Shown here: in pieces, positions 1 through 63,400 of the stretch
How positions within the stretch are numbered: position 1 is the stretch's first letter
How the letters are laid out: every line of letters starts with the position of its first letter
Source of the DNA: Mobula hypostoma
Taxonomy: Eukaryota
Direction of reading: 5' to 3'
Assembly (NCBI RefSeq): GCF_963921235.1
Contig: NC_086108.1
Span: 66,032,001-66,096,000, forward strand
Length of the DNA: 64,000 nt
Notes under the pieces: model-generated
The model's database searches: none
What the model was told of the DNA's origin: nothing
Seen by the model: the letters and a program-made list of their open reading frames with translations, nothing else
Program-made: the position numbers and the translations under genes

Positions 1-2221
1 TCACAACTCTATCTCCTTTACCATAGCATTGGAGAGGGATAGGAACAGACAAGTTAGGAATGTGTTTATTTGGAGTAAGGGGAAACATGAGGCTGTCAGG
101 CAGGAACTTGGAAGCATAAATTAGAAACAGATGTTCTCAGGGAAACGTATGGAAGCAATGTGGCAAATGTTCAGGGGATATTTGCGTGGATTCTGCATAG
201 GTACATCCCATGAGACAAGGAAAGGATGGTAGGGTTCAGGAACTGTGGTGTACAAAGGCTGTTGTAATCTAGTCAAGAAGACAAGACGAGCTTATGAAAG
301 TTTCAAAAAACTAGGCAATGATGGAGATCGAGAAGATTATAAGGCTAGCAGGAGGGAGCTTAAGAAGGAAATTAGGAGAGCCAGAAAGAGCCATGAGAAG
401 GCCTTGGCGGACAGGATTAAAAAAACCCCAAGAATGTGAATAGCAAGAGGATAAGATGTGAGAGAATAGAACCAATCAAATGTGACTGTGGAAAAGTGTG
501 TTGGAACCGGAAGAGATAGCAAAGGTACTTAATGAGTACTTTGCTTCAGTATTCACTGCGAAAAAGGGTCATGGCGATTGTAGGGATGACTTACAACGGA
601 CTGAAAAGCTTGAGCATGAAGATATTAAGGAAAAGGATGTGCTGGAGCTTTTGGAAAGCATCAAGTTGCATAAGTCACGCAGATGAAATGTACCCCAGGC
701 TACTGTGGGAGGCAAGGGAGGAGATTGTTGAGCCTCTGATGATGGTCTTTGCATCATCAATGGGTATGGGAGACGTTCCAGAGGATTGGAGGGTTGCGGA
801 TGCTGTTCCATTATTCAAGAAAGGGTGTAGAGCTAGCCCAGGAAATTGTAGACAAGTGAGTCTTACTTCAGTGGTTGGTAAATTGATGGAGAAGATCCTG
901 AGAGGCAGGATTTATGAACATTTGAAGAGGTATAATATGATTAGGAATAGTCAGCATGGCTCTGTCAAAGGCAGGTCATGCCTTACAAGCCTGATTGAAT
1001 TTTTTGAGGATGTGACTAAATTCATTGATGAAGGTCGAGCCATGGATGTAGTGTATATGGATTTTAGCAAGGCATTTGATAAGGTACCCCATGCCAGGCC
1101 TATTGAGAAAGTAAGGAGGCATGTGATCCAAGGGGACATTGCTTTGTGGATCCAGAATTGGCTTGCCCACAGAAGGCAAAGAGTGGTTGTAGATGGGTCA
1201 TATTCTGCATGGAGGTCGGTGACCAGTGGTGTGCCTCAGGGATCTGTTCTGGGATCCCTACTCTTAATGATTTTTATAAATGACCTGGATGAGGAGGTGG
1301 AGAGATGGGTTAGTAAATTTGCTGATGACACAAAGGTTGGGGGTGTTGTGGATAGTGTGGAGGGCTGTCAGAGGTTACGGCGGGACATTGATAGGAGGCA
1401 AAACTGGGCTGAGAAGTGGCAGATGGAGTTCAACCCAGATAAGTGTGAGGTGGTTCATTTTGGTAGGTCAAATTTGATGGCAGAATGTAATATTAATGTT
1501 AAGACTCTTGGCAGTGTGGAGGATCAGAGGGATCTTGGGGTCCAAGTACATAGAACACTCAAAACTGCTGCTCAGGTTGACTGTGATTAAGAAGGCATCC
1601 GGTGCATTGGCCTTCATCAGTTTAAGAGCCCAGAGGTAATGTTGCAACTATATTGGACCCTGGTCAGGCCCCACTTGTGCTCAATTCTGGCTGCCTCACT
1701 ATAGGAAGGATGTGGAAACAATAGAAAGGGTGCAGAGGAGATTTAAAAGGATGTTGCCTGGTTTGGGGGGCATGTCTTATGAGAACAGGTTGAGTGAACT
1801 CGGCCTTTTCTCCTTGGTGCAACGGAGGATGAGAAGTGACCTGATAGAGGTGTACAAGATAATGAGAGGCATTGATTGTGTGGATAGTCAGAGGCTTTTT
1901 CCCAGGGCTGAAATGACTAGCACGAGAGGGCACAGTTTTAAGCTGTTTGGAAGTAAGTACAGAGGAGATGTCAGGGGTAAGTTTTTTACGCAGAGAGTGG
2001 TGAGAGCGTGGAATGGGCTGCTGGCAACAGTGGTGGAGGCGGAAACAATAGGGTCTTTTAAGAGACTCCTGAATGAGTACATGGAGATTAGAAAAATAGA
2101 GGGCTATGGGTTACCCTCGGAAATTTCTAAGGTAAGGACATGTTTGGCACAGCTTTGTGGGCTGAAGGACCTGTATTGTGCTGTAGAGTTTCTATGTTTC
2201 CAGATATTTTTCTATGTTTCT
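1..2221 (+). mobile_element. CR1-clade LINE, family A; ORF2 RT region plus 3' end, frameshifted, runs off the window start
   Basis: RT motifs [30 protein letters not shown] and KFADD in ORF 532-1590. CR1 C-terminus (ERVQRRF, FFTQRVV..WN) and TTTCTATG tail repeats at about 2188-2221. Confidence 0.92.
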
Positions 2222-11149: not shown

Positions 11150-11250
11150 GCTAATTGAAGCACTGACACAATGAGGGCAAATAGGGTGGCGCCAGCCTCC
11201 TTTTGCTCTGACATATAAACCAGGTGGCGTCAGTTCAACACCTGATCCCG
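11150..11250 (+). promoter_or_regulatory. Probable FOXE1 core promoter with TATA box
   Basis: TATAAA at 11214-11219, about 135 nt upstream of the ATG at 11352. A second TATAAA lies at 11057-11062. The TSS cannot be determined from sequence alone. Confidence 0.5.
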
Positions 11251-11351
11251 GCCTCTTCGGTAGCAAGCATTACGCCGGACTGCCCAGAGCAGACCTCAGG
11301 CTGAAGTTTATGAATCTAACCGACATCTCGTACTTTACTGGCGCATGCACC

Positions 11352-12554
11352 ATGACTGCAGAGTCTCAGCAGTCACCCACCGAAGCCTCCACCGCTTCGG
11401 TGCCCCTGGAGAGCTCAGCGGATATATCACTGGAGACTCCGGGGAAGAACGAGGTGATGGTCAAATCGGAGCCGCAGGGCAGCACGCCGATCACGGAGAG
11501 AGAGGACGAAGAAATTGGGGACATTGAAGGACTCATCCCCACTTCAGGAAGCAGGAGGAGGAAGCGCCCTATCCAACGCGGTAAACCTCCTTACAGTTAC
11601 ATCGCTCTTATCGCCATGTCCATTGCCAACTCGCCAGAAAGAAAGCTGACGCTTGGAGGAATTTACAAGTTTATAATGGACCGGTTCCCATTCTATAGGG
11701 AAAATTCCAAAAAGTGGCAAAATTCCATAAGGCACAACCTAACGCTCAATGATTGTTTTGTGAAGATCCCCCGTGAACCCGGGCGCCCCGGGAAGGGCAA
11801 TTACTGGACGCTAGACCCGGCAGCTGAAGATATGTTCGATAACGGAAGCTTTTTACGTCGGAGGAAACGTTTCAAGCGCTCAGACATCACTACTTACCCA
11901 GGTTACATGCAGAATTCCAGTGCCTTCACCCCCACTCCGGTTGGGAGACCTTCCTATCCCAATGCACTGTATCCCAGCGTGTGTTCGGCCTATAGCCCGC
12001 AGGTCCACAGCAGTAGCCACAACCCGGCCATGCTGCATCCCTACCAGGGGGCAGCGGTTAGTCAGGCCCAACACAGGATGTTCAGTATTGACAATCTCAT
12101 CGGGCCACAATCCGTTTTGCAGGCTTCATCGGGGATTGACTTAAACTCTCACTTAAACGGAGATATTGGACCAATGGTCAGTTGCTCTATTGGCGGAGTG
12201 GACGTTTCCAGTTTTCAACCACAGTCCGCCAGCCCTACTGGGTCCGGGGCAGGGGCCGGGGCCGGGTTGAACAGGTCTTCCAACAGCATTACTTCTAATA
12301 CGACCTATTCGTATTCTGCATCCCCTCCTCACCTATCTATATCTCAAGCCAGCTACTCTGCCAATAACACCCAGATGTACTGTCCTTCCAATCGACTTGC
12401 CATGCCGCCCATGAGACCCAACTCCTGCTCAGATCACAGCGATCAGCTTTTGGGTTTATCCAACCATCAGATGAACGGACTTGCACAGTTCAATGCCAAT
12501 AATTCATACATGCGACAAGCAAACTGTGCACCCGCCCTTGACAGATTCATGTAG
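11352..12554 (+). CDS. FOXE1: Forkhead box protein E1 (thyroid transcription factor 2), single-exon gene
   Basis: Uninterrupted ORF 11310-12554. The strong-Kozak start gcaccATGa at 11352 gives the N-terminus MTAES, as in tetrapod FOXE1. Forkhead domain [22 protein letters not shown]...[35 protein letters not shown]...[17 protein letters not shown] is FoxE class, and the KRSD.T/STYP extension favours FOXE1 over FOXE3. eh1-like FSIDNLI at 12081-12101. Confidence 0.92.
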
Positions 12555-17689: not shown

Positions 17690-18918
17690 TGCACATCAAT
17701 GCTCAAGTCCTTAAATGGATACACAGTAGAGAGCATCCTAACATGCTGCATCATTGAATGGTACAGAAACTGCAACGTGGTGGAAACTGCAAGGCTCTAT
17801 ATTTGTAGCCAAAACTGCCAAACGAATCTACGGCACCAGTACCCACCATCAAGGACATATAGAAACATAGAAACATAGAAACATAGAAAATAGGTGCAGG
17901 AGTAGGCCATTCGGCCCTTCGAGCCTGCACCGCCATTTATTATGATCATGGCTGATCATCCAACTCAGAACCCAGCCTTCCCTCCATACCCCGTGACCCC
18001 TGTAGCCACAAGGGCCATATCTAACTTCCTTTTAAACATAGCTAATGAACTGGCCTCAACAGTTTGCTGTGGCAGAGAATTCCACAGATTCACCACTCTC
18101 TGTGTGAAGAAGTTTTTCCTAACCTCGGTCCTAAAAGGCTTCCCCTCTATCCTCAAACTGTGACCCCTCGTTCTAGACCTCCCCAACATCGGGAACAATC
18201 TTCCCGCATCTAGCCTGTCCAATCCCTTTAGGATCTTATACGTTTCAATCAGATCCCCCCTCAATCTTCTAAATTCCAACGAGTACAAGCCCAGTTCATC
18301 CAGTCTTTCTTCATATGAAAGACCTGCCATCCCAGGAATCAATCTGGTGAACCTTCTTTGTACTCCCTCTATGGCAAGGATGTCTTTCCTCAGATTAGGG
18401 GACCAAAACTGCACACAATACTCCAGGTGTGGTCTCACCAAGGCCTTGTACAACTGCAGTAGTACCTCCCTGCTCCTGTACTCGAATCCTCTCGCTATAA
18501 ATGCCAGCATATATACAAAAGATGCTGGAAAAAAAGCCAGCAACATCATAAAGGATCCCACCCACTCTGCTCATGGACTGTTTGCCCCACTCTCAACAGG
18601 GAGGAGGCTATGTACTCTAGTATCCACACCAGGACCACCAGACTCAAAAACAGTTACTTTCCTCAAGCAGTAAGGCTGAACAATGCCTCCACGAACTACC
18701 CATTCCACCACAACTCCCACTACCACTACTTTATCATTTTCAGTCAGTCAGCTTATGTATAGACATTCCTGTGCCTAACATCATGGACATATAATCAATT
18801 TATGTATTTTGTTCATTGTCTTTTCTTATGTGCTGCATCAGATCTGGATTAACAATTATTTAGTTCTACCTTACAATTCTGTACTGGAAATGACATTAAA
18901 CAATCTTGAATCTTGAAT
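17690..18918 (+). mobile_element. Rex1/Babar-type LINE 3' fragment, interrupted by a CR1
   Basis: KKASNIIKDPTH.AHGLF.PL..GRR motif typical of the Rex1 C-terminus. Tail attaaacaatcttgaatcttgaat. Confidence 0.7.
17862..18507 (-). mobile_element. Young CR1 family B 3' fragment
   Basis: Open ORF2 C-terminus (17965-18510), (TTTCTATG)3 tail, and CATATA at 17856-17861 and 18508-18513. Confidence 0.93.
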
Positions 18919-20646: not shown

Positions 20647-21033
20647 TAGACCATAAGACCATAAGATACGGGAGCATAATTAGGCCATTTGGCCCATGAA
20701 GTCTGCTCCACCATTTCATCATGGCTGATTCAGTTTTTCTTTCAGCCCCAATCTCTTACCACTCCCCCCTCCACCTCACTGTATCCCTTCATGCTCTGAC
20801 CAATTAAGAATCTTTCAATCTCTGTCTTAAATGCACATAAAGACTTAACCTCCACAGCTGCATGTGGCAAAGAATTCCACAGATTCACCACTCTCTGGCT
20901 AAAGAAATTCCACCTCATCTCCATTCTAAAAGGATGCCCTTCTATTCTGAGGTTGTGTCCTCTTGTCTTAGACTCTCTCACCAGAGGAAAGATCCTCTTT
21001 ACATCCACTCTAACAAGGCCTTTCACCATTCGA

Positions 21034-21188
21034 AAACACAAACACGAGGAAATCTGCAGATACTGAAATTTCAAGCATTTCAAGCAAGTGTTAGTCCTGA
21101 TGAAGGGTCTCAGCCAGAAACGTCAATTGTACCTCTTCCTAGAGATGCTGCCTGGCCTGCTGCGTTCACCAGCAACTTTTATGTGTTG
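21034..21188 (+). mobile_element. Penelope-derived ~155-bp inverted mini-element with hammerhead motif
   Basis: 14-bp TSD CTTTCACCATTCGA at 21020-21033 and 21189-21202. Homologous to the 3' end of the PLE at 24613-24750. Hammerhead core at 21093-21128. Confidence 0.85.
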
Positions 21189-21945
21189 CTTTCACCATTC
21201 GATAAGTTTTAATGAGGTCACCCCTCATTCTTCTGAATTCCAGTGAATACAGGCCCAGAGCCATCAAATGATCTCCACATGACAAGCCATTCAGTCCTCG
21301 AATCATTTTTGTGAACCTCCTTTGTACCCTCTTTAGTTTCAGCACATCCTTATTAAGATAAGGGCCCAAAACTGCTCACAATACTCCAATTGAGGCCTTA
21401 CCAGTGCTTTATGAAATCTCAACATTACATCTTTGCTCTTATATTCTAGTCCTCTTGAAATAACATCACATTTGCCTTCCTCACCACAGACTCAACCTGC
21501 AAATTAACCTTTAAGGAATCTGTACAAGAGCTCCCAAGTCCAGTTGCACCTCAGGTTTTCGTATTTTTGCTCCATTTAGACAATAGTCAACCCTTTCATT
21601 TCTTCTACCAAAATGCATGATCATACCACTTCCTGACACTATATTCCAGCTGCCACTTCTTTGCCTATTCTCCTAATCTGTCTAAGTCCTTCTATAGTCA
21701 CTCTACTTCCTCAAAACTACCTGCCTTTCCACCTAATTTCGTATTGTCTGCAAACTGCAACAAAACCATCAATTCCATCATCCACATCATTGACATATAA
21801 TGTAAATAGAACTGGTCCCAACACAGACCCCTGTGGAACAACACTAGTCACCAGCAGACAACCAGAAAAGGCTCCCTTTATTCCCTTTATTCCCACTCTT
21901 TGGCTTCTGCCAATCAGCCACTGCTTTATCCACGCTAGAATCTAT

Positions 21946-22962
21946 CCACAAGGCTCAGTGCTGGGACCCCAGTTGTTTACAATATATATTAATGACTTGG
22001 ATGAGGGAATTAAATGCAGCATCTCCAAGTTTGCGGATGACACGAAGCTGGGTGGCAGTGTTAGCAGTGAGGAGGATGCTAAGAGGATGCAGGGTGACTT
22101 GGATAGGTTGGGTGAGTGGGCAAACTCATGGCAGATGCAATTTAATGTGGATAAATGTGAAGTTATCCACTTTGGTGGCAAAAATAGGAAAACAGATTAT
22201 TATCTGAATGGTGGCCGATTAGGAAAAGGGGAGGTGCAACGAGACCTGGGTGTCATTATACACCAGTCATTGAAAGTGGGCATGCAGGTACAGCAGGCGG
22301 TGAAAAAGGCGAACGGTATGCTGGCATTTATAGCGAGAGGATTCGAGTACAGGAGCAGGGAGGTACTACTGCAGTTGTACAAGGCCTTGGTGAGACCACA
22401 CCTGGAGTATTGTGTGCAGTTTTGGTCCCCTAATCTGAGGAAAGACATCTTTGCCATAGAGGGAGTACAAAGAAGGTTCACCAGATTGATTCCTGGGATG
22501 GCAGGTCTTTCATATGAAGAAAGACTGGATGAACTGGGCTTGTACTCGTTGGAATTTAGAAGATTGAGGGGGGATCTGATTGAAACGTATAAGATCCTAA
22601 AGGGATTGGACAGGCTAGATGCGGGAAGATTGTTCCCGATGTTGGGGAGGTCTAGAACGAGGGGTCACAGTTTGAGGATAGAGGGGAAGCCTTTTAGGAC
22701 CGAGGTTAGGAAAAACTTCTTCACACAGAGAGTGGTGAATCTGTGGAATTCTCTGCCACAGCAAACTGTTGAGGCCAGTTCATTAGCTATGTTTAAAAGG
22801 AAGTTAGATATGGCCCTTGTGGCTACAGGGGTCAGGGGATATGGAGGGAAGGCTGGGTTCTGAGTTGGATGATCAGCCATGATCATAATAAATGGCGGTG
22901 CAGGCTCGAAGGGCCGAATGGCCTACTCCTGCACCTATTTTCTATGTTTCTATGTTTCTATG
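21946..22962 (+). mobile_element. Young CR1 family B, 5'-truncated, open reading frame
   Basis: Uninterrupted frame from PQGSVLGP/KFADD to the stop at 22863, then a (TTTCTATG)3 tail. Confidence 0.94.
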
Positions 22963-24029
22963 TAATACTATGGCTCGTAGCCTGTTAAGCAGCCTCATGT
23001 GTGGCAACTTGTCAAAGGCCTTCTGAAAATCCAAATACACAACATCACCAATTCTCCTTTGTCTATCCTGCTTGTTATTTCCTCAAAGATTTGTCAGGGA
23101 AGATTTTCCCTTGAGGAAACCATGCTGACTATGGCTTATATTATCATGTGCCTCCAAGTACCCCATAACCACATCCTTAACAATCGACTCCAACATCTTC
23201 CCACCACTGAGGTCAGACAAAATGGCCTATAATTTCTATTTTTTTCTGCCTCTCCCTTCTTGGAAGAGTGTAGTGACATTTGAAATTTTCCATTTTTCTG
23301 GAACCGTTCCAGAATTTAGTGGAGGGCCATCATTGTGGGGACCTGAGAGGCTGAGACAACTGAAACTTAATTGGAGATCCATCTACCATTTGCATGCCAC
23401 ATTCCCTGCAATAGTCAACTGAAAACAAATTAAGAAAGGTACTAGATGACTGTTTCCATGCTGTATACCTTGATCTGTTACCCAACAGAAGGCAAACAGG
23501 TGTTCGTACAAACCTTTGTGCCCCTGGTTAGAAAGCATACTGGTCCAAGAAAGGATCATGCTGCTCAGAGGAAGCATGAAAGTGATGAAAGCTCTGGTTT
23601 GACTCCGACAGTTTTTGCAGGCAAAATATCTGAGAAAGCTTCTGATATCTTAGTCAGGCATGTAGAAATGTAGCTTGGTTTTAAGCTGGAAGTGAGTTCA
23701 AGGAGCTTCAGGAATGTTGTGAGCACTCAGATTTTGTGAGTATAAAGAAACAGACTCCACTCGAGTGCATTAAGGTTATTGCATGACCTTCAAGTACGAG
23801 ACAAAAAGCTGCTTCTAAAAGCAGATGCAAAGACCCAGCTGGATGAATGGAAGGCCAAAAAGAAAAGAGTCAATGGAGATACAAAAACAGAGGATTCATC
23901 AGATGATGTTGTGGGTGAGGAAGCCAAGAGAGATCAGATCCTAAAGGAGGCAATAGAAGGATTAATAAGAGAATACTCCAGTGAACTAAATACACTTTCC
24001 CAAGAGCAAGATGAACAAACTAGAAGAAA

Positions 24030-24599: not shown

Positions 24600-24612
24600 G
24601 AAAAGGCAGGAA

Positions 24613-25340
24613 ACAACAGGAATTCTGCAGATGCTGGAAATTCAAGCAACACACATCAAAGTTGCTGGTGAACGCAGCAGGCCAGGCAGCATCTCTAGGA
24701 AGAGGTGCAGTCGACGTTTCAGGCCGAGACCCTTCGTCAGGACTAACTAAAGGAAGAGTGAGTAAGGGATTTGAAAGTTGGAGGGGGAGGGGGAGATCCA
24801 AAATGATAGGAGAAGACAGGAGGGGGAGGGATAGAGCCAAGAGCTGGACAGGTGATAGGCAAAAGGGGATATGAGAGGATTATGGGACAGGAGGTCCGGG
24901 AAGAAAGACGGGGGGGGGGAACCCAGAGGATGGGCAAGGGGTGTATTCTGAGGGACAGAGGAAGAAAAAGGAGAGTGAGAGAAGAATGTGTGTATAAAAA
25001 TAAGTAACAGATGGGGTACGAGGTGAGGTGGGGCCTTAGCGGAAGTTAGAGAAATTGATGTTCATGCCATCAGGTTGGAGGCTACCAGACGGAATATAAG
25101 GTGTTGTTCCTCCAACCTGAGTGTGGCTTCATCTTTACAGTAGAGGAGGCCGTGGATAGACATGTCAGAATGGGAATGGGATGTGGAATTAAAATGTGCG
25201 GCCACTGGGAGATCCTGCTTTCTCTGGCGGACAGAGCGTAGATGTCCAGCAAAGCAGTCTCCCAGTCTGCGTCGGGTCTCGCCAATATATAAAAGGCCAC
25301 ATCGGGAGCACCGGATGCAGTATATCACCCCAGTCAACTC
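24613..25340 (-). mobile_element. Penelope-like element 3' part: GIY-YIG endonuclease, pyrimidine-rich spacer and hammerhead
   Basis: GVIYCIRCSRCGLLYIGETRRRL..(R)F..H…LEEQHLI. 11-bp TSD AAAGGCAGGAA at 24602-24612 and 25341-25351. Confidence 0.9.
24709..24744 (-). ncRNA. Minimal type I hammerhead ribozyme, intact core
   Basis: The minus strand reads AGTC CTGACGA AGG GTCTCGG CCT GAAA CGTC GACT: stem I AGTC/GACT, core CUGANGA and GAAA, stem II AGG/CCT, palindromic ACGU stem III and a GUC cleavage triplet. Confidence 0.8.
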
Positions 25341-25846
25341 AAAGGCAGGAATTTTCATTTCTTGATAAACTTTTTGTGGTGCTTGGACATAGTGATCTTG
25401 TCGCACTCATTTCCACGACCTGGAGCATCTAATGATTGTGCCAACCATTCTATTTACCAAGAGAGTTCCCCTCCATGATCCTGACCACAGTTTACGTACT
25501 GCCACAAGCTGATATTCAGCAGGCACCCAAGGTACTGAGTGCAGTGATTAACAATCAAGAAACAGCCTACCCTGACACCTTTCAAATCATTGTCGGGGAT
25601 GTCAGTCAGACTTGCTTGAAGATATCTCTGCCCAATTATCATCAACGTATCACCTGCAACACCAGGCATACAACAGACTTGACCACTGTTATATGATGAT
25701 TAGGGATGCCTACCATTCCATCCCTGGACAGCATTTTGTCTGTGCTCCTTCTACCTGTATACAGGCAGAGGGTGAAGGGCAAGACTCCAGTGAGTAGAAC
25801 AACAAAGAAGGTGTGTGGGCAGAGGAGTGGCTATGGGATTGCTTCA

Positions 25847-28800
25847 TAGAAACATAGAAAACCTACAGCACATTACAGGTCCATTGGCCCACAAAGTTGT
25901 GCCAAACATGTCCCTACCTTAGAAATTGCTAGGCTTACCTATAGCCCTCTGTTTTACTAAGCTCCATGTACCTATCCAAAAGTCTCTTAAAAGACCCTAT
26001 CGTATCCGCCTCCACCACCGTTGCCAGTAGCCCATTCCATGCACTCACCACTCCCTGAGTAAAAAACTCACCCCTGACATCTCCTCTGTTCCTACTCCCC
26101 AGCACCTTAAACCTGTGTCCTCTTGTGGTAACCATTTCAGCCCTGGGAAAAAGCCTCTGACTATCCACACAATTAATGCCTCTCATCATCTTATACACCT
26201 CTATCAGGTCACCTCTCATCCTCCGTCACTCCAAGGAGAAAAGGCCGAGTTCACTCAACCTGTTTTCATAAGGCATGCTCCCCAATCCAGGCAACATCCT
26301 TGTAAAGCAACACACATCAAAGTTGCTGGTGAACGCAGCAGGCCAGGCAGCATCTATAGGAAGAGGTACTGTCGACATTTCAGGCCGAGACCCTACGTCA
26401 GGACTAACTGAAGGAAGAATAAGTAAGAGATTTGAAAGGGGGAGGGGGAGATCCAAAATGATAGGAGAAGACAGGAGGGGGAGGGATGGAGCCAAGAGCT
26501 GGACAGGTGATAGGCAAAAGGGATATGAGAGGATCATGGGACAGGAGGTCCGGGAAGAAAGACAGGGGAGGGGGGGGATCCCAGAGGATTGGCAAGGGGT
26601 ATATTCAGAGGGATAGAGGGAGAAAAAGGAGAGTGAGAGAAAGAATGTGTGTATAAAAATAAGTAACAGATGGGGTACGAGGGGGAGGTGGGGCATTAGC
26701 GGAAGTTAGAGAAGTCGATGTTCATGCCATCAGGTTGGAGGCTACCCAGACGGAATATAAGGTGTTGTTCCTCCAACCTGAGTGTGGCTTCATCTTTACA
26801 GTAGAGGAGGCCGTGGATAGACATGTCAGAATGGGAATGGGATGTGGAATTAAAATGTGTGGCCACTGGGAGATCCTGCTTTCTCTGGCGGACAGGGCGT
26901 AGGTGTTCAGCAAAGCGGTCTCCCAGTCTGTGTCGGGTCTCGCCAATATATAAAAGGCCACATCGGGAGCACCGGACACAATATATCACCCCAGCCGACT
27001 CCTTGTAAATCTCCTCTGCACCCTTTCTATGGCTTCCACATCCTTCCTGTAGTGAGGTGACCAGAACTGAGCACAGTACTCAAGTGGGGTCTGACCAGGG
27101 TCCTATACAGCTGCAACATTACCTCTCGGCTCCTAAATTCAATTCCAGGATTGATGAAGGCCAATACACTGTATACCTTCTTAACCACAGATCAAGCTGC
27201 ACAGCTGCTTTGAGTGTCCTATGGACTCAGACCGCAAGATCCCTCTGATCCTCCACACTGTCAAGAGTCTTACCATTAATACTATATTCTGTCATCATAT
27301 TTGACCTACCAAAATGAACCACTTCACACTTATCTTTGTTGAACTCCATCTGCCACTTCTCAGCCCAGTTTTGCATTCTATCAATGTCCCGCTGTAACCT
27401 CTGACAGCCCTCCACACTATCCACAACACCTCCAACCTTTGCGTCATCAGCAAACTTACTAACCCATCCCTCCACTTCCTCATCCAGGTCATTTATAAAA
27501 ATCACAGAGAGTAAGGGTCCTACAACAGATCCCTGAGGTACTCCACTGGTGACCGACCTCCATGCAGAATATGACCCATCTACAACCACTCTTTGCTTTC
27601 TGTGGGCAACCCAGATCTGGATCCACAAAGCAATGTCCCCTTGGATCCTATGCCTCCTTATGTTCTCAATAAGCCTCGCATGCAGTATTTTATTGACTGC
27701 CTTGCTGAAAACCATATACGCTACATCTACTGCTCTTCCTTCATCAATGTGTTTAGTCACATCCTCAAAAAATTCAACCAGGTTCGTAAGGCACAGCCTG
27801 CCCTTGACAAAGCCATGCTGACTATTCCTAATCATATTATACCCCTCCAAATGTTCATAAATCCTGCCTCTCAGGATAATTTCCTGGGCTATCTCTGCTC
27901 CCTTTCTTGAATAAAGGAACAACATCCGCAACCTTCCAATCCTCCAGAACCTCTCCCATCCCCATTGATGATGCAAACAGCATCGCCAGCAGCTCATCAA
28001 TCTCCTCCGTCACCTCCCACAGTAGCCTGGGGTACATCTCATCCAGTCCCGGCGACTTATCCGACGATGCTTTCCAAAAGCTCCAGCACATCCTCTTTCT
28101 TAATATCTACATGCTCAAGCTTTTCAGTCTGCTGCAAGTCATCACTACAATTACCAAGATTCTTTTCCATAGTGAATACTGAAGTAAAGTATTCATTAAG
28201 TACCTCTGCTATTTCTTCTGGTTCCATACACACTTCCCCACTGTGACACTTGATTGGTCCTATTCTTTAGGTCTTATCCTCTTGCTCTTCACATACTTGT
28301 AGAATGCCTTGGGGTTTTCCTTAATCCTGCCCGCCAAGGCCTTCTCATGGCCCCTTCTGGCTCTCCTAATTTCCTTCTTAAGCTCCTTCCTATTAGCCTT
28401 TTAATCTTCTAGGTCTCTAACATTACCTAGCTCTCTGAACCTTTTGTAAGCTTTTCCTTTCTTCTTGACTAGATTTATTACAGCCTTTGTACACCACAGT
28501 TCCTGTACCCTACCATAACTTCCCTGTCTCATTGGAACGTACCTATGCAGAACTCTACACAAATATCCCCTGAACATTTGCCACATTTCTTCCGTACTTC
28601 TCCCCGAGAAAATCTGTTTCCAATTTACTCTTCCAATTTCCTGCCTGATAGCCTCATAATTCCCCTTACTCCGATTAAACACTTTTTAAAATTGTCTGTT
28701 ACTATCTCTCTCCAATGCTATTGTAAAGGAGATAGGATTATGATCACTATCTCCAAAATGCTCTCCCACCGAGAGATTTGACACCTGACCAGTTTAATTT

Positions 28801-32290: not shown

Positions 32291-34133
32291 AATCTATCAT
32301 CCCCTTAAAGTTAATCAATAAGCAAAATCTGGGACTCAATACCTCCTTGTGCAACTGGTTCCTGGAAATCCTGATTTGCAGACCCCTGTTCTAACCACTT
32401 CATACATTTGATTGTGAGGTGAAGCACAGCCCTGATACCATATTTAAGTTTGCTGATGACTCCACTGTCACTGGCTGAATCAAAGGTGGTGATGATTCAG
32501 AATATAGGAGAGAGATTGAAAATCTGTCTGAATAGTGCCGCAACAACAGCCTCTCACTCAATGTCAGCAAGACCAAGAAGCTGATTATTGACCACATGAG
32601 GAAGAGATATGCCAGTCCATGTCAGGGGAATTAGAGGTGGAAAGTGTCACCAACTTGAAATTCCTCTGTGCTTTCATTTCAGAAGATCTGTCCTGAATCC
32701 GACATGTAAGAGCCACCACAAACAAAGCACAGCAGCACTTCTACTTTCTTAGCTTATGAAAATTCGGCATGTCATCAAAAACTGACAAACTTGTATAGAT
32801 GTGTGGTGGAGAGTATATTGACTGGTTGCAACACAGCCAGGTATGGAAACATCAATACTCTTCAATCGAAGAGCCGACAAAAAGCCTGCTTTACTGGTAA
32901 AGTCCTTCCCACCACTGGGCATATGTACATGGAGTGCTGCCGCCAGAAAGCAGCATCCATCATCGGGGACCCCCCCACCATCCAGGCCATACTCTCTTCT
33001 CACTGCTGCCATCAGAATGGAGGTACAGGAGCCTCAGGAGCCACACCATCGGAATCAGGAACAGTTACTACCCATCAACCATCCAGCTCTTGAACCGAGG
33101 TGGTGAGGGGTGGGGAGAATACCACTCGATCTCACTCCCTCCAACAGTGAACTTTCCCCACAACCTATGGACTCACTTTCAAGGACTCTTCATCTCGTTT
33201 TTGATATTAATTACTTATTTATTTATTATCATTATTTTGTTTTTTTTGTTTCTTTGTATAGATAGATAGACATACTTTATTGATCCTGAGGGAAATAGGG
33301 TTTCGTTACAGTTGCAGCAACCAATAGAGTATAAATATAGCAATATAAAACCATAAATAATCAATAATATGTAAATTATGCCAGATGGAAATAAGTCCAG
33401 ACTGAGAAAATGAATCTCAGGGTTGTATATAGTGACATACATGTACTTCAATAATAAATTCACTTTGAACTTTAGACTGGGTTTTTCTTTTGGCAACCCT
33501 GATAGCTTTAGAGAGATTCGATGGTCGTGATGGAATCTGGAACCTCAGCTCAAAGAGGCTTCCACTGGACTTAAATGTCAAATCATAACTTAAATCTCAA
33601 TTTGCTGGTGCTAATATAACAGACTTTGGAGCTTTATGTTAAAATTTAGCTTCATGAATTCATCAGTGCCAATAACAGGTTTGGTGAATCTCTACACAAT
33701 AATGTTTTAGTACAAATAAGCATAAATACAAATATTTCCCAAGTATGAGTGAGATTGGGAAAGAATGGCAGGGAGGAACCCAAGACCTAGTTTGCAAATC
33801 CAAGACAAGTAACAATCTGCAAGACAGATGTAATGATTTTGGATAGTAACACAATATCTGAAAACCCTATTTATTCAGTAAAATGTTGAAACACATTAGA
33901 AGAAATCACAATTGTGTGTTAACTTGTTGAATACGATTTAAAATAAATTTGTTTTGTATTTTTTAAAATAATTTAAATAAAATCAATAAACTAGGTACAA
34001 ACTGAATACAGAAACATGGATAATGCAAGCCCATATTAACGGTGTCATAATAATGATCACTTCTTGTTGTATTTAGCCCTTAGGATAGAGAAGAAACCTA
34101 CATATAGCACAAAAGCAACCTGTACTTTAATCA

Positions 34134-34288
34134 ACACACATAAAAGTTGCTGGTGAACGCAGCAGGCCAGGCAGCATCTCTAGGAAGAGGTGCAGTCGAC
34201 GTTTCAGGCCGAGACCCTTCGTCAGGACTAACGAAGTTTTGTGTGTGTTGCTTGAATTTCCAGCATCTGCAGAATTCCTGTTGTTTGT
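34134..34288 (-). mobile_element. Penelope-derived ~155-bp inverted mini-element with intact hammerhead
   Basis: 14-bp TSD CTGTACTTTAATCA at 34120-34133 and 34289-34302. The PLE 3' segment is on the minus strand, followed by an inverted terminal tail. Confidence 0.88.
34194..34229 (-). ncRNA. Minimal type I hammerhead ribozyme, identical to 24709-24744
   Basis: Plus strand agtcgacgtttcaggccgagacccttcgtcaggact, the same 36 nt as at 24709-24744. Confidence 0.8.
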
Positions 34289-34813
34289 CTGTACTTTAAT
34301 CATCTTTTTCTTGTTTACCAAAGACAAATACTGATCCGGATGGCAGACAGGAGAGAAAAAGAGTTAAAGCTCATACTGGATTTTAAGTGCTGCACACATT
34401 TCTGGCCATCATATTGCAGGAAAGATGTGATTGCATTAGAGAGGTTCCAGTGAAGTTTTACCCGGATATTGAGAAGACTTTTTTTTTTGTTAAGAGGTCT
34501 GGCTAGGCTAAGTTTATTTCCCTTGAACAGAGATTGAGCAAACATTTAATTGAGGTGTGTAAGGATAAGAGAGGCATGAAGAGAATGGTTGGAGGGATTT
34601 ACTTCCATAAGCAGTGAAGTCAATAATGAGTAGGCTGAACTTTAAAATAATTGGCAGAAGGATTAGGATGAATTAAGTATGTTTTTTTTTAACCTTACCT
34701 GGTGTGCATGCTGGAAGTTTGGAACTCATTTTCTGAAAAAATTGAGTGATACAGCACAGAAATAACCTCTTCAGAGCTCTGAATCTGCACCGTAAAGTAC
34801 CCTTTTACACTAA

Positions 34814-35335
34814 TCAAAGTTCAAAGTATATAAATTATCTAAGTATGTGTACTATATATAACCTTGAGATTCATCTCCTTACAGGCAGCCACAAAACAAA
34901 GAAATCCAATAGGACCCATTAAAAAAAGACCGTCAATCAGCCAATGTGTAAAAAAAACAGATTATGCAAACAGTAAGTCAAATAATATTCAGGCCTAAAG
35001 TTCATGAAAGTGAGTTCACAGCCACGAACAACAGGAATTCTGCAGATGCTGGAAATTCAAGCAACACACATCAAAATTGCTGGTCATCACTGCAGCTAGT
35101 TTAAGAGCCCACAGCTTCAGTTCAGTACAGAGATGAGTAAACCCTGCTGAGCAGTGAGCTGAACTCTAGCCCATTCCTTGCCTCCGGCCCCAACATCCTA
35201 ACCTTTTTACAAACGTAATTTGACCCAGTGCTTAAAATGGGCAAACATCAGCTGGTTCTTCATTCTCAGACCCAGGCTCTGCCACTTCAAAATGCTCTCG
35301 GGCCCAGGTCCACTGCCTTGATTTGGCAGTTCATG
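34814..35335 (-). mobile_element. Non-coding retroposon with Rex1-like (AACTTTG) tail, carrying a PLE tail fragment at about 35025-35083
   Basis: Tail caaagttcaaagt…aaccttgagattcat is similar to 20341-20400. 35025-35083 matches 24612-24670. Confidence 0.5.
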
Positions 35336-37704: not shown

Positions 37705-39682
37705 TGGATGAGTATGCTGTAGTTGTTACCGACTTATTAAAACCATGTGTGGATGAGTGTGTGCCTTCAAAGACTTGCTGTACATTCCCAAACCAAAAAC
37801 TGTGGATGAACCAGGATGTATGTCATCTGCTGAAGGCTAGATCTGGGTCATTCAAGGCTGGTGACCTAAATCTGTACCAGAAAACCAGGTCTGACTTGTG
37901 GAGGGCTATTTCAAGGGCGGAGACAATTTTGAACGAGGTTGGAGGTGACATCGGATGTACGACAACTCCAGCAGGTTTGCAAGACATTACTTCCTACAAG
38001 TGAAACCCAGTAGCATGAATGGCAGTGCTGCTTCACTACCAGATGATCTCAATGCCTTCTATGCCCAGTTTGAAGGGGAGAACATAACTACAGCTGTGAA
38101 GATCTCTGCTGCACCCAGTGATCCTGTGATCTCTATCTCAGAGGCTGATGTCAGGCTGCCTTTAAAGAGGGTGAACCCTCGCAAGGTGGAAGGCCCTGAC
38201 AGAGTACCTGGTAAGGCTCTGAAAACTTGCACCAACCAAGTGGCAGGAGTATTCAAGGATATTTTCAACCTCTCACTGCAACAGGAAGATGCTCCCACTT
38301 CTTACAAAAAGGCAACAATTATACCAGTGCCTAAAAAGAATAATATGAGCTGCCTTAATAACTATCACCCAGTAGCACTCTCATCTACAGTGATGAAATG
38401 CTTTGAGAGTTTGGTTGTGACTAGACTGAACTCCTGCCTCAGCAAGGACCTGGATCCACTGCAGTTTGCCTATCGCCACAATAGGTCAACGGCAGATACA
38501 ATCTCAATGGCTCTTCACATGGCCTTAGACCTCCTGTTCAATACAAACACCTATGTCAGGATGCTGTTCATTGACTACAGCTCAGCATTTAATGACACCA
38601 TTCCCACAATCCTGATTGAGAAGTTGCAGAACCTGGACCTCTGTACCCCCCTCTGCAATTGGATCCTTGGCTTCCTAACTGGAAGACCACAATCCGTACA
38701 GATTGGTGATAATATCTCCTCCTCGCTGATGATCAACACTGGTGCACCTCAGGGGTGTGTGCTTAATCCACTGCTCTACTCTCTCTATACACATGACCGT
38801 GTGGTAGGCATAGCTCAAATACCATTTATAAATTTGCTGATGATACAACCATTGTTGGTAGAATCTCGGGTGGAGAGGAGAGGGCTACAGGAGTGAGATA
38901 TATCAACTAGTGGAGTGGTGTCTCAGCAACAATCTTGCACTCTATGTCAGTAAGTCGAAGGAGTTGACTATGGATTTCAGGAAGGGTAAGACAAAGGAAC
39001 ACATACCAATGCTCATAGAGGGATCAGAAGTGAAGAGAGTGAGCAGTTTCAAGTTCCTGGGTGTCAAGATCTCCGAGGACCTAACCTGGTCCCAATATAT
39101 CGATGCAGCTATAAAGGCAAGACAGCAACTATACTTCATTAGGAGTTTGAAGAGATTTGGAATGTCAACAAAACCGCTCAAAAGCTTCTACAGATGTACC
39201 ATGGAGAGCATTCTGACAGGCTGCATCACTGTCTGGTATGGGGAGGCTACTGCACAGGACCGAAAGAAGCTGCAGGGGGTTGTAAATTTAGTTGGCTCCA
39301 TCTTGGGTACTAGCCTACAAAGTACCCAGGATATTTTCAAGGAACGGTGTCTCAGAAAGGCAACATCCATCATTAAGGACAGCTAGCACTCGGGATATGC
39401 ACTTCTCTTTGTTACCATCAAGTGGGAGGTTCGGAGGCCTGAAGGCACACACTCAGTGCTTCAGGAACTGTTTCTTCTCCTCTGCCATTTGATTCTTAAA
39501 TGGACATTGAAGCTGTGAACACTACCTCACTTTGAGATATTATTTCTGTTTAATCTATTCAATATACATATATGGTCATTGATTTATTTATTATTACTTC
39601 TTCTATATTTTGTATTGAACTGCTGCTGCTAAATTAACAAATTTCACAACACATGCCAATGATAATAAACCTGATTCTGATT
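37705..39682 (+). mobile_element. Rex1/Babar LINE, RT region and 3' end
   Basis: [28 protein letters not shown] and TGAPQGCVLNPLLYSLYT (ORF 37955-38896), frameshifted at KFADD. C-terminal ORF 38910-39386 and tail aataaacctgattctgatt. Confidence 0.9.
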
Positions 39683-59197: not shown

Positions 59198-59410
59198 TAA
59201 ACACAAGAGATTCTGCAGATGATGGAAATTCAGAATAACTCACACAAAAATAATGCTGGATTTACTCAACAAGTCAGGCAGCATCTACGGAAAGAAATAG
59301 AGTCGATATTTCAGGCCGAGAATGGTCTCAGCCCAAACATCGACTCTTTATTCATGTCCATAGATGTGGCCCGACATGTTGAGTTCCTCCAGCATTTTGT
59401 GTGTATTACT
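59198..59410. mobile_element. Old palindromic Penelope-derived element
   Basis: Two PLE 3' arms joined back-to-back at about 59320 (gagtcgatatttcaggccgaga / ggtctcagcccaaacatcgactc). Confidence 0.7.
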
Positions 59411-60488: not shown

Positions 60489-63400
60489 TAGAACATAGAA
60501 CAGTACAGCACATTACAGGCCCTTCGGCCCACAATGTGGTGCTGACCCTCAAACCCTGCCTCCCATATAATCCCCCACATTAAATTTCTCCATATACCTG
60601 TCTAGTAGTCTCTTAAACTTCACTAGTGTATCTGCCTCCACCACTGACTCAGGCAATGCTTTCCACGCACCAACCACTCTCTTAGTAAAAACCTTCCTCT
60701 AGTATCCCCCTTGAACTTCCCACCCCTTACCTTAAAGCCATGTCCTCTTGTATTGAGCAGTGGTGCCCTGGGGAAGAGGCACTGGTTATCCACTCTATCT
60801 ATTCTTCTTAATATCTTGTAACCTCTATCATGTCTTCTCTCATCCTCCTTCTCTCCAAAGAGTAAAGCCCTAGCTCCCTTAATCTCTGATCATAATGCAT
60901 ACTCTCTAAACCAGGCAGCATCCTGGTAAATCTCCTCTGTACCCTTTCCAATGCTTCCACATCCTTCCTGTAGTGAGGTGACCAGAACTGGACACAGTAC
61001 TCCAAGTGTGGCCTAACCAGAATTTTATACAGCTGCATCATTACATCGTGACTCTTAAACTATATCCCTTGACTTTTGAAAGCTAACACCCCATAAGCTT
61101 TCTTAACTACCCTATCTACCTGTGAGGCAACTTTCAGGGATCTGTGGACATGTACCCCCAGATCCCTCTGCTCCTCCACACTACCAAGTATCCTGCCATT
61201 TACTTTGTATTCTGCCTTGGAGTTTGTCCTTCCAAAGTGTACCACCTCACACTTCTCCAGGTTGAACTCCATCTGCCACTTCTCAGCCCACTTCTGCATT
61301 CTATCAATGTCTCTCTGCAATCTTCAACAATCCTCTACACTATCTACAACACCACCAACCTTTGTGTCGTCTGCAAACTTGCCAACCCACCCTTCTACCC
61401 CCACATCCAGGTCGTTAATAAAAATCACGAAAAGTAGAGGTCCCAGAATAGATCCTTGTAGGACACCACTAGTCACAACCCTCCAATCTGAATGTACTCC
61501 CTCCACCATGACCCTCTGCCTTCTGCAGACAAGCCAATTCTGAATCCATTTTGCCGAACTTCCCTGGATCCCATGCCTTCTGACTTTCTGAATAAGCCTA
61601 CCGTATGGAACCTTGTCAAATGCCTTACTAAAATCCACGTAGATCACATCCGCTGTACTATTCTCATCTATATGCCTGGTCACCTCCTCAAAGAACTGTA
61701 TCAGACTTGTTAGACACAATCTGCCCTTCACAAAGCCATGCTGACAGTCCCCGATCAGACCATGATTCCCTAAATGCCCATAGATCCTATCTTTAAGAAT
61801 CTTTTCCAACAGCTTTCCCACCACACATATAAGGCTCACTGGTCTATAATTATCCGGACTATCCCTGCTACCTTTTTTGAACAAGGGGACAATATTCGCC
61901 TCCCTCCAGTCCTCCGGTACCATTCCTGTGGACAATGAGGACATAAAGATCCTAGCCAGAGGCTCAGCAATCTCTTCCCTCAACTCGTGGAGCAGCCTGG
62001 GGAATATTCCAACAGGCCCCGGGGAATTATCCGTCCTGATGTATTTTAACAACTCCAACACCTCCTCTCCCTTAATATCAACATGCTCCAGAATATCAAC
62101 CTCACTCATATTGTCCTCACTGTCATCAAATTCCCTCTCATTGCTGAATACCGAAGAGAAGTATTCATTGAGGACCTCGCTCACTTCCACAGCCTCCAGG
62201 CACATATTCCCACATTTATCTCTAATTGGTCCTACCTTCACTCCTGTCATCCTTTTGTTCTTCACATAATTGAAGAATGCCTTGGGGTTTTCCTTTACCC
62301 TACTCACCAAGGCCTTCTCATGCCCCATTCTTGTTCTTCTCAGCCCCTTCTTAAGTTCCTTTCTTGCTTCCCTATATTCCTCAATAGACCCATCTGATCC
62401 TTGCTTCCTAAACCTCATGTATGCTGCCTTCTTCCACCTGACTAGATTTTCCACCTCACTTGTCACCCATGGTTCCTTCACCCTACCATTCCTTATCTTC
62501 CTCACTGGGACAAATTTATCCCTAACATCCTGCAAGAGATCTCTAAACATTGACCACATTTCCATAGTACATTTCCCTGCTAAAACATCATCCCAATTCA
62601 CACCCGCAAGTTCTAGCCTTATAGCCTCATAATTTGCCCTTCCCCAATTAAAAATTTTCCTGTCCTCTCTGATTCTATCCTTTTCCATGATAATGCTGAA
62701 GGCCAGGGAGCAGTGGTCACTGTCCCCCAGATGCTCACCCACTGAGAGATCTGTGACCTGACCCGGTTCGTTACCTAGTACTAGATCCAGTATGGCGTTC
62801 CCCCTAGCCGGCCTGTCCACATACTGTGACACTTTACGCCCTTTATTCTGCTTCTCTTTCCTCAAAGCCTCTCTATATGTTAGATCTGGCTTTACTCCAT
62901 GCACTTCTTTTACTGCTGTATCGCTTCAAGTCCCATCCCCCTTGCAAATTAGTTTAAACCCTCCCGAACCATGCTAGCAAACCTACCTGCAAGGATATTG
63001 CTCCCCCTCGAGTTCAGGTGCAACCCATCCAATCTGTACAGGTCCTACCTTCTCCAGAAGAGATCCCAATGATCCAAAAATCTAAAACCCTGCTCCCTGC
63101 ACCAACTCCTCAGCCATACATTCAACTGCCATCTCCTCCAATTCTTACCATCACTGTCACGTAGCACTGGCAGCAATCCTGAGAACGTCACCCTTGAGGT
63201 CCTGTTCTTCAGCCTTCTGCCTAGTTCCCGAAACTCACACTTCAGGACATCATCCCTCTTCCTGCCTATGTCATTGGTCCCAACATGTAGCACGCCTTCT
63301 GGTTGCTTTCCCTCTCGTACCAGGATGTCGTGCACCCCGTCAGAGACAACCCTGACTCTGTCACCCGGGAGGCAACAAACCATGCGGGTGTCCACAAAAT

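What the first reader, a model, noticed from the sequence alone, without database searches (positions are those of the whole stretch)
34120..34302. ~155-bp non-coding ribozyme mini-element with inverted architecture and 14-bp TSD
Seen: a hammerhead plus PLE 3' segment on one strand fused to the PLE terminal tail on the other (caacacaca.aaaa … ttttgtgtgtgttg), bounded by a perfect 14-bp TSD. The copy at 21034-21188 has the same layout in the opposite orientation and also a 14-bp TSD. In both, similarity to the long PLE begins at the same place, GTTAGTCC, 3 nt before stem I. Inference: either a self-propagating non-autonomous 'retrozyme/SINE-like' family mobilised by PLE RT and GIY-YIG, or a stereotyped product of PLE integration with a defined RNA end next to the ribozyme.
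Basis: partly seen in the sequence, partly recalled or inferred. Interest (0 to 1): 0.72.

Follow-up and report, generated by a model that had tools for sequence, protein, structure and literature searches.

The report
Two-ended Penelope retrotransposon insertion stub
This 155-base insert is one of likely tens of thousands of short head-to-head stubs of a Penelope-type jumping gene, not a ribozyme element that spreads by itself; it was likely built at landing when both cut DNA strands copied one RNA from two fixed start points and ran to its likely front end, which would explain the one-sided "tail" of these elements.

Summary
In detail: a 155-bp insert (34134-34288), an exact 14-bp TSD, a minimal hammerhead on the minus strand, and a second copy at 21034-21188 with the same layout. 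The retrozyme/SINE reading fails. This junction occurs once in the 3.5-Gb genome. Such stubs carry the same subfamily haplotypes as long copies. Their inner ends avoid the ribozyme cut site.

It is the short end of a series of head-to-head insertions (about 0.15-4.2 kb) of a protein-coding PLE with a Neptune/Nematis-type linker. In 73 of 81 short two-arm insertions one arm ends near +100 and the other near +136; none has two like ends. TSDs peak at 14 bp. Both arms share a haplotype in 53 of 61 (11.5% by chance). Inner ends pile up at -1..+5, with the mode at +3/+4; GTTAGTCC is a minority end.

Best model: each nicked strand primes cDNA at a different fixed site on one RNA, and the two cDNAs join. 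That the inner end is a transcription start is inferred only (about 50%). The layout is published, and two start sites with both-strand extension were shown in vitro. This scan noted the same pattern in at least 10 other genomes.

The parts
34120..34133 (+). Left target-site duplication (14 bp); its last 2 nt (CA) also match PLE +100/+99, a possible priming microhomology
34134..34232 (-). Arm A: PLE leader/pLTR positions 0..+98 (sense on the minus strand); inferred cDNA primed at the inner (about +100) start site and ending at 0
34194..34229 (-). Minimal type I hammerhead motif (helix I +3..+6 / +35..+38, core CUGACGA, GAAA, palindromic loop 3; predicted cut between 34198 and 34197); activity not tested
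   Evidence: read from sequence against the min-HHR description in PMC4209133; no Rfam hit
34233..34236 (+). GAAG junction bases, inferred fold-back or cross-annealed extension on the quasi-palindrome at 0..+17; the same junction word occurs 386 times in the genome
34237..34288 (+). Arm B: PLE +87..+137/138 including the 36-nt tail; inferred cDNA primed at the outer (about +136) start site from the other strand and stopped just past arm A's start
34289..34302 (+). Right target-site duplication (14 bp)
21020..21202 (+). Second, older stub with the same layout in the opposite orientation: TSD 21020-33 and 21189-202; tail arm 21034-21077 (antisense), 12 extra nt, leader arm 21090-21188 (0..+100, sense)
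24611..25345 (-). 5'-truncated long copy of the parent PLE (about -600..+136): GIY-YIG C-terminus, 3' UTR, pLTR with tail
26305..27001 (-). 5'-truncated long copy ending at the inner site (about -600..+103, no tail)
35027..35095 (-). Short single-arm fragment of the same PLE end (+67..+135)

Best explanation
The insert is a head-to-head stub of a protein-coding Penelope-like retrotransposon, likely assembled afresh at its landing site rather than copied from another stub. Shown: the parent unit is 3,520 nt, with a 1,012-aa RT + GIY-YIG frame in one copy; short two-arm insertions have one arm ending near +100 and one near +136, TSDs centred on 14 bp, arms of one haplotype, and inner ends piled at -1..+5. 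Inferred: the protein (probably a dimer) nicks both strands about 14 bp apart; one 3'-OH primes cDNA at about +100 and the other at about +136 of the same RNA; the +100 cDNA runs to the template's front end; the +136 cDNA either stalls where the first was primed (this element, +87) or also runs to the front (the ~220-bp palindromes); the two 3' ends join by microhomology or after a few bases of fold-back (GAAG). Least sure (about 0.5): that the front end is the transcription start, at an initiator-like TTAGTCC (A at +3) with a weaker one at -1. The hammerhead is a passenger.
For: Outer ends: 73 of 81 short two-arm insertions pair a +85..112 end with a >=+124 end, 0 have two like ends, 8 have one intermediate end (loci chosen by inner junction or unselected, not by outer ends). 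Unselected 1.464 Mb: 19 of 23 inverted insertions of 144-4,234 bp show that pairing, none two like ends (binomial 4e-6 for 19 of 19). Exact TSDs in 68 of 81; 56 are 13-15 bp, mode 14. Arms fully concordant at 5 diagnostic sites in 53 of 61 short pairs against 11.5% of random pairs. Inner ends: 18 of 57 at +5..-4; 9,570 pattern matches genome-wide with mode +3/+4; TSD abuts the end in L228, L247, L248 and three unselected copies. Where both arms reach +15 or further, both stop (6) or both read through (8), mixed 0 of 14 (hand count; Fisher 1/3003), as expected if the template itself ends there. One full-length copy starts at about 0 inside an 11-bp TSD (L171). In vitro, Anolis Poseidon protein cleaves and extends both strands, starts at two internal sites that bound the tail, does not need ribozyme cleavage and is modelled as a dimer (PMC11167929, parts 1-2 of 4 read).
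Against: No RNA start was observed: only assembled contigs were available. 8 of 9 full-length copies extend 42-1,646 nt upstream of 0 without a scar, and 5'-versus-3' pLTR divergence is not lower upstream of 0 (46/3,628) than downstream (16/885; p=0.26), so a strand jump at 0 is not supported and many templates must start further upstream. A predicted RNA hairpin spans -7..+17 with its loop at +4..+7 and could itself cause the stop. One mixed case (L202) and two ambiguous ones (young arm abutting an older fragment on C5; left out of the 14) exist. Long pairs are concordant in only 6 of 13 (pairing not TSD-checked). Concordance cannot separate one RNA molecule from one source locus, or from fold-back copying. 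The in vitro work is on another clade.
Confidence: 0.75

Rival explanations
1. Same two-ended priming, but the inner end is set by the -7..+17 hairpin (RT stall, cDNA fold-back, or cutting in its loop) on RNA that continues upstream, not by a transcript start. This is a variant of the best model; the number is its share of the inner-end question.
For: Predicted hairpin with loop +4..+7; 386 exact fold-back junctions at 0 that skip the bulged A; 8 of 9 full-length copies run on past 0; no divergence step at 0.
Against: Independent stalls should give mixed pairs (one arm stopped, one long): 0 of 14 in unselected DNA, and no partner beyond -12 among the 17 two-arm insertions, though long pairs have very unequal arms. 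The fold energy of the region is not unusual (z -0.44).
Confidence: 0.3
2. Self-priming (fold-back) on a single, possibly antisense, template makes the inverted arm, as proposed for Adineta PLEs, without a second target-primed event.
For: Palindromes at inverted junctions, proposed as self-priming in PMC3846280 (passages read); fold-back bases at the junction here; it also predicts concordant arms.
Against: A fold-back copy of a +100-primed cDNA cannot supply the +101..+136 tail, yet either arm can be the one with the native inner end; arms of this element overlap by only 14 nt; many junctions keep two native inner ends (L232, L242, L243).
Confidence: 0.1
3. A self-propagating non-autonomous family (retrozyme or SINE-like) mobilised in trans by the PLE protein.
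For: Intact-looking hammerhead core, TSDs, many copies. The T90 variant carried by this element is enriched in stubs (9 of 24 versus 3 of 37 read-through arms, p=0.008; exact read-through link 6 of 33 versus 36 of 100, p=0.08), which would fit a leader-only source lineage. Non-autonomous PLE derivatives are published (PMC8557442 passages; bioRxiv 10.64898/2026.07.22.740005, parts 1-2 of 5).
Against: Exact junction unique in the genome (1 exact match, itself, plus 1 one-mismatch hit not examined); the two window copies differ in junction and subfamily; 9 four-site haplotypes occur at least twice in both stubs and read-through copies; 33 changes on the tree; no tandem arrays of the unit in 1.464 Mb; no ends at the cut site; T90 read-through copies exist.
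Confidence: 0.07
4. Ordinary random 5' truncation with inversion, as in L1 twin priming, with no programmed sites.
For: The layout of this element is that of L1 twin priming (recalled, not read here); 2-nt microhomology at arm A's start; two unselected insertions have an inverted arm that is internal.
Against: The second priming site is fixed near +99..+101 and the first near +134..+138, both also used by single-arm copies; the inner end is a narrow peak.
Confidence: 0.05

Closest known systems
EN+ PLE insertions with an inverted 5'-truncated copy and a one-sided 30-40-bp tail (Adineta Pen2a, PMC3846280; scheme in PMC8557442; D. virilis Penelope, PMC2377424; passages read)
   Same: Head-to-head arms, tail on one arm only, TSD round the whole unit, palindrome at the junction, hammerhead in the pLTR
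   Different: Here the unit is only the 0..+137 leader, with no ORF; numbers allow end histograms; a narrow inner-end peak at -1..+5 was not seen in the passages read
PAc, Poseidon of Anolis carolinensis, in vitro (PMC11167929, parts 1-2 of 4 read)
   Same: Two internal RT start sites bounding the tail, both strands cut and extended, ribozyme cleavage dispensable, AT-rich targets (TSDs 68% AT versus 57% background)
   Different: Other clade (this protein has the CX2-5CxxC linker); the paper saw no difference in start site between strands and did not, in the parts read, relate the sites to inverted insertions or TSD length; here the two arms of one insertion use different sites
Metazoan non-LTR retrozymes (PMC7229834, passages; bioRxiv 10.64898/2026.07.22.740005, parts 1-2 of 5)
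   Same: Type I hammerhead, PLE ancestry, long TSDs, no protein
   Different: Retrozymes are tandem direct repeats cut into monomers and circles at the ribozyme; this is a single inverted unit whose ends avoid the cut site and which is not recopied
L1 twin priming (Ostertag and Kazazian; recalled, not read)
   Same: Two primers from one staggered cut on one RNA; inverted 5' part; small overlap at the inversion point
   Different: No poly(A); both priming sites are fixed by the element rather than by chance homology; both arms often copy the same stretch

Membership tests
EN+ Penelope-like element (parent) | Single ORF with RT and C-terminal GIY-YIG | tested here: met
   1,012-aa frame in L176; RVT_1 E 1e-4 to 1e-5, below the curated cut-off, and GIY-YIG E 6e-5, above it, in L127
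EN+ Penelope-like element (parent) | pLTR by partial tandem, inverted truncated copy, 30-40-bp tail | tested here: met
   8 of 9 full-length copies are partial tandems; tail +101..+136
Neptune/Nematis clades | CX2-5CxxC linker before the GIY-YIG (PMC8557442) | tested here: met
   C-x4-C-xx-C upstream of the nuclease in L176
Neptune/Nematis clades | Placement on an RT tree (Neptune versus Nematis) | not tested
   no reference RT set was fetched
Non-LTR retrozyme | Tandem direct repeats, each with a hammerhead | tested here: not met
   single inverted unit; no tandem arrays of the unit among 62 young insertions in 1.464 Mb
Non-LTR retrozyme | Unit boundaries at the ribozyme cut site | tested here: not met
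   0 of 79 arms start at +35; nearest +27 and +54
Non-LTR retrozyme | Self-cleavage and circular RNA | not testable with these tools
   needs an assay and raw RNA reads; MFE of arm A RNA pairs the core into a hairpin with the added bases
SINE-like non-autonomous family | Many copies of one fixed sequence descending from a master | tested here: not met
   junction unique; haplotypes shared with long copies, 33 changes on the tree
SINE-like non-autonomous family | A leader-only source lineage | tested here: inconclusive
   T90 enrichment in stubs p=0.008 and p=0.08 in two samples
Minimal type I hammerhead of PLEs | Core, 4-5-bp helix I, palindromic 15.2-16.2/loop 3, G10.1-C11.1 pair (PMC4209133) | tested here: inconclusive
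   core, helix I and palindrome present by eye; position +26 is U here (G-U instead of G-C); C in 31 of 244 arms; no Rfam hit

The most novel reading that the evidence does not exclude
PLE integration is programmed twin priming: a dimeric RT-endonuclease cuts with a ~14-nt stagger and each strand starts at its own site on one RNA, so the one-sided tail, the inverted pLTR and the TSD come from one step. The leader stubs are run-off ('strong-stop'-like) cDNAs that mark the capped start of the element's mRNA at the first base of hammerhead helix I, and because that start lies inside the stub, some leader-only copies may be re-transcribed and form a nascent non-autonomous lineage (the T90 type).
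Probability: 0.3. Interest if true: 0.65.

Novelty: new variant of a known kind. Interest (0 to 1): 0.42.

Why it matters
How PLEs make inverted pLTRs and a tail on only one side is described as unresolved in PMC8557442 and PMC11167929. The stubs are a very large natural record of cut stagger (14 bp), start sites (about +100 and +136) and template end (-1..+5), and give direct predictions for the existing in vitro system. They also warn that hammerhead-bearing short repeats in such genomes need not be retrozymes. About 3x10^4 short two-arm insertions are extrapolated (13 in 1.4 Mb of seven hand-picked blocks); the palindromic ones would form ~100-bp RNA hairpins if read through (inference).

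Tried and rejected
Rfam scan: 0 hits. An internal 63-nt DNA query returned nothing because common words are skipped; this shows that the hits are biased towards the rare junction, so they were not used for frequencies. Arms under 88% identity were dropped from the histograms (114 arms): their +3 peak is at least partly an alignment artefact of older subfamilies with a different upstream sequence, and a few such read-throughs are among the 100 rows. RNA: no RNA holder listed with raw reads; contigs of four runs cover the region and show opposite-strand joints but cannot show starts. Splice-acceptor idea (pyrimidine tract ending in AG at -1/0 and +3/+4; in D. virilis the intron ends at helix I, PMC4209133): rejected for these stubs, since the TSD abuts the end and no shared upstream exon follows in the 100 rows or among the 15 of 18 joints shown. 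Cap-templated extra base: C follows in 8 of 26 +3 ends, no excess (hand count). Strand transfer at 0: no divergence step. Genome-wide control windows for the inner-end peak were not obtained, so the control is the 1.464-Mb sample only. Literature searches listed no paper whose listing applies twin priming to PLEs; the two hits were seen as listings only, supplements were not opened, and subscription journals are not covered.

Full report
Observation. The insert spans 34134-34288 between exact 14-bp duplications, and the copy at 21034-21188 has its own exact 14-bp duplication. The minus strand of 24611-25345 encodes the C-terminus of a GIY-YIG nuclease followed by the same terminal sequence, which fixes the sense strand. 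With G of GTTAGTCC as 0, the insert is arm A (+98..0, antisense), GAAG, and arm B (+87..+137, sense). Each arm reads from its duplication as a cDNA would. The hammerhead (+3..+38) was read by eye against the minimal-motif description in PMC4209133 (parts 1-2 of 4 read); Rfam does not report it.

Parent element. A search with an N-terminal stretch had 2,556 candidates, 40 scored. Of 20 such loci fetched, 9 hold a full unit of about 3,520 nt; L176 has a 1,012-aa frame starting at +173. RT and GIY-YIG profiles match weakly and the CX2-5CxxC linker of Neptune/Nematis is present. One of the 9 starts at about 0 inside a TSD; 8 carry 42-1,646 nt of upstream tandem. Exact 20-mers of the end occur 18,813 + 78,984 times, and the exact read-through word 46,805 times.

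Unselected sample. The window plus seven 200-kb blocks (1.464 Mb, hand-picked, not random) hold 62 young insertions with 79 arms (>=88% identity, 3' end >= +85). Outer ends are bimodal: in the first 1.264 Mb, 35 of 68 at +90..107 and 33 at +124..136. Inner ends: 18 of 57 arms at risk fall in +5..-4 (one is the selected 21034 copy; this element's own arm is recorded at -5 because of its fold-back bases), 6 of 63 in +15..+6, and 0-3 in each other bin from +75 down to -104; none lies at the ribozyme cut (+35). A smaller pile at +95..+76 (9 of 79) includes tail-only arms like arm B. Of 23 inverted insertions (144-4,234 bp), 19 pair a short with a tailed end and none has two like ends. Stubs and long inverted copies are therefore one series.

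Targeted samples. The fold-back junction word has 386 exact matches; most of the first 30 are 200-250-bp palindromes, with the native inner end on the short or on the tailed arm. A pattern for ends between +7 and -3 has 9,570 matches under three extra constraints; a hand count of the first 100 gives +7:6, +6:3, +5:12, +4:22, +3:26, +2:10, +1:6, 0:7, -1:3, -2:3, -3:2 (both arms of some palindromes and a few older read-throughs are included). In 30 of these loci (28 insertions) single arms often abut their TSD, and none of 17 two-arm insertions has a partner beyond -12. Pooled and de-duplicated, 73 of 81 short two-arm insertions pair unlike outer ends, 0 like ends; 68 have an exact TSD, 29 of 14 bp and 56 of 13-15 bp; the short boundary peaks at +99..+101, the long at +134..+138.

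Family or repeated event. The junction of this element is unique. Stub arms (136) and read-through arms (72) share haplotypes; on a 155-row tree of about 85 nt the stub label changes 33 times (shuffles: mean 41, minimum 33), and 69 of 98 stubs are as close to a read-through copy as to another stub. The two arms of one short insertion agree at all scored diagnostic sites in 53 of 61 cases against 11.5% at random. So stubs arise many times, each from one source. Against this: the T90 variant, which this element carries, is enriched in stubs, so a leader-only source lineage is not excluded.

Mechanism. PMC11167929 (parts 1-2 of 4 read) shows for Anolis Poseidon that both strands are cut and extended, that RT starts at two internal sites bounding the tail, and that ribozyme cleavage is not needed. 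PMC3846280 and PMC8557442 (passages) describe the inverted copy, the one-sided tail and junction palindromes, and leave their origin open, the former proposing self-priming. The counts here join these: one site per strand. In this element the tail-primed cDNA stopped 14 nt past the other primer, as in L1 twin priming (recalled). The other cDNA reached 0 and gained 4 nt, likely on the quasi-palindrome at 0..+17, before joining. What sets the inner end is open. For a template end: both arms stop or both pass (6 and 8, mixed 0), the modal end is the A of TTAGTCC, a match to the initiator consensus YYANWYY (recalled; weak evidence in pyrimidine-rich DNA), and D. virilis Penelope has an internal promoter with an initiator (PMC2377424, passages). 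Against: most full-length copies pass 0 without a scar, there is no divergence step at 0, a hairpin overlaps the site, and no raw RNA reads were available.

Comparison and verdict. It works like published EN+ PLE inverted insertions and belongs with them; it fails the tested retrozyme and SINE criteria. After I had recorded this reading, the scan's index showed 19 findings in at least 10 other genomes under the same words, and the 8 shown reach similar conclusions; these are unchecked notes and were not counted as support. Novelty: new variant of a known kind. Interest 0.42, for the testable mechanism rather than for the element.

Noticed in passing
window 11175-12551 (+): 459-codon stop-to-stop frame with a Forkhead domain (PF00250, E 1.7e-37); likely a single-exon host Fox gene
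   Followed up: partly
window 17865-18511 and 22317-22963: 647-bp inverted repeat with 100% complementarity, 3.8 kb apart, enclosing the 21034 stub; recent conversion, inversion or assembly artefact
   Followed up: no
L174, 5' versus 3' pLTR: Only 4 differences over about 1,480 nt upstream of -155 but 14 over the next 290 nt, suggesting a template switch or conversion tract near -155
   Followed up: partly
PLE position +26 (window 34206): U in most young copies, C in 31 of 244 arms; U replaces the conserved G10.1-C11.1 pair of the hammerhead by G-U
   Followed up: no
window 34241: Arm B has G where arm A has A at +91, inside the 14-nt overlap; mutation or editing not resolved
   Followed up: no
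joints 3634-3502 (X1) and 3624-3505 (X5) on L176: Single contigs in two other runs join the tail end back to +3/+6, a possible tandem of the leader unit
   Followed up: no
window 59199-59321: Older, more diverged relative of the same PLE end (74-82% identity)
   Followed up: no
window 520-1587, 37949-38893, 61327-62925: RT-bearing frames of other LINE-like repeats (PF00078)
   Followed up: no
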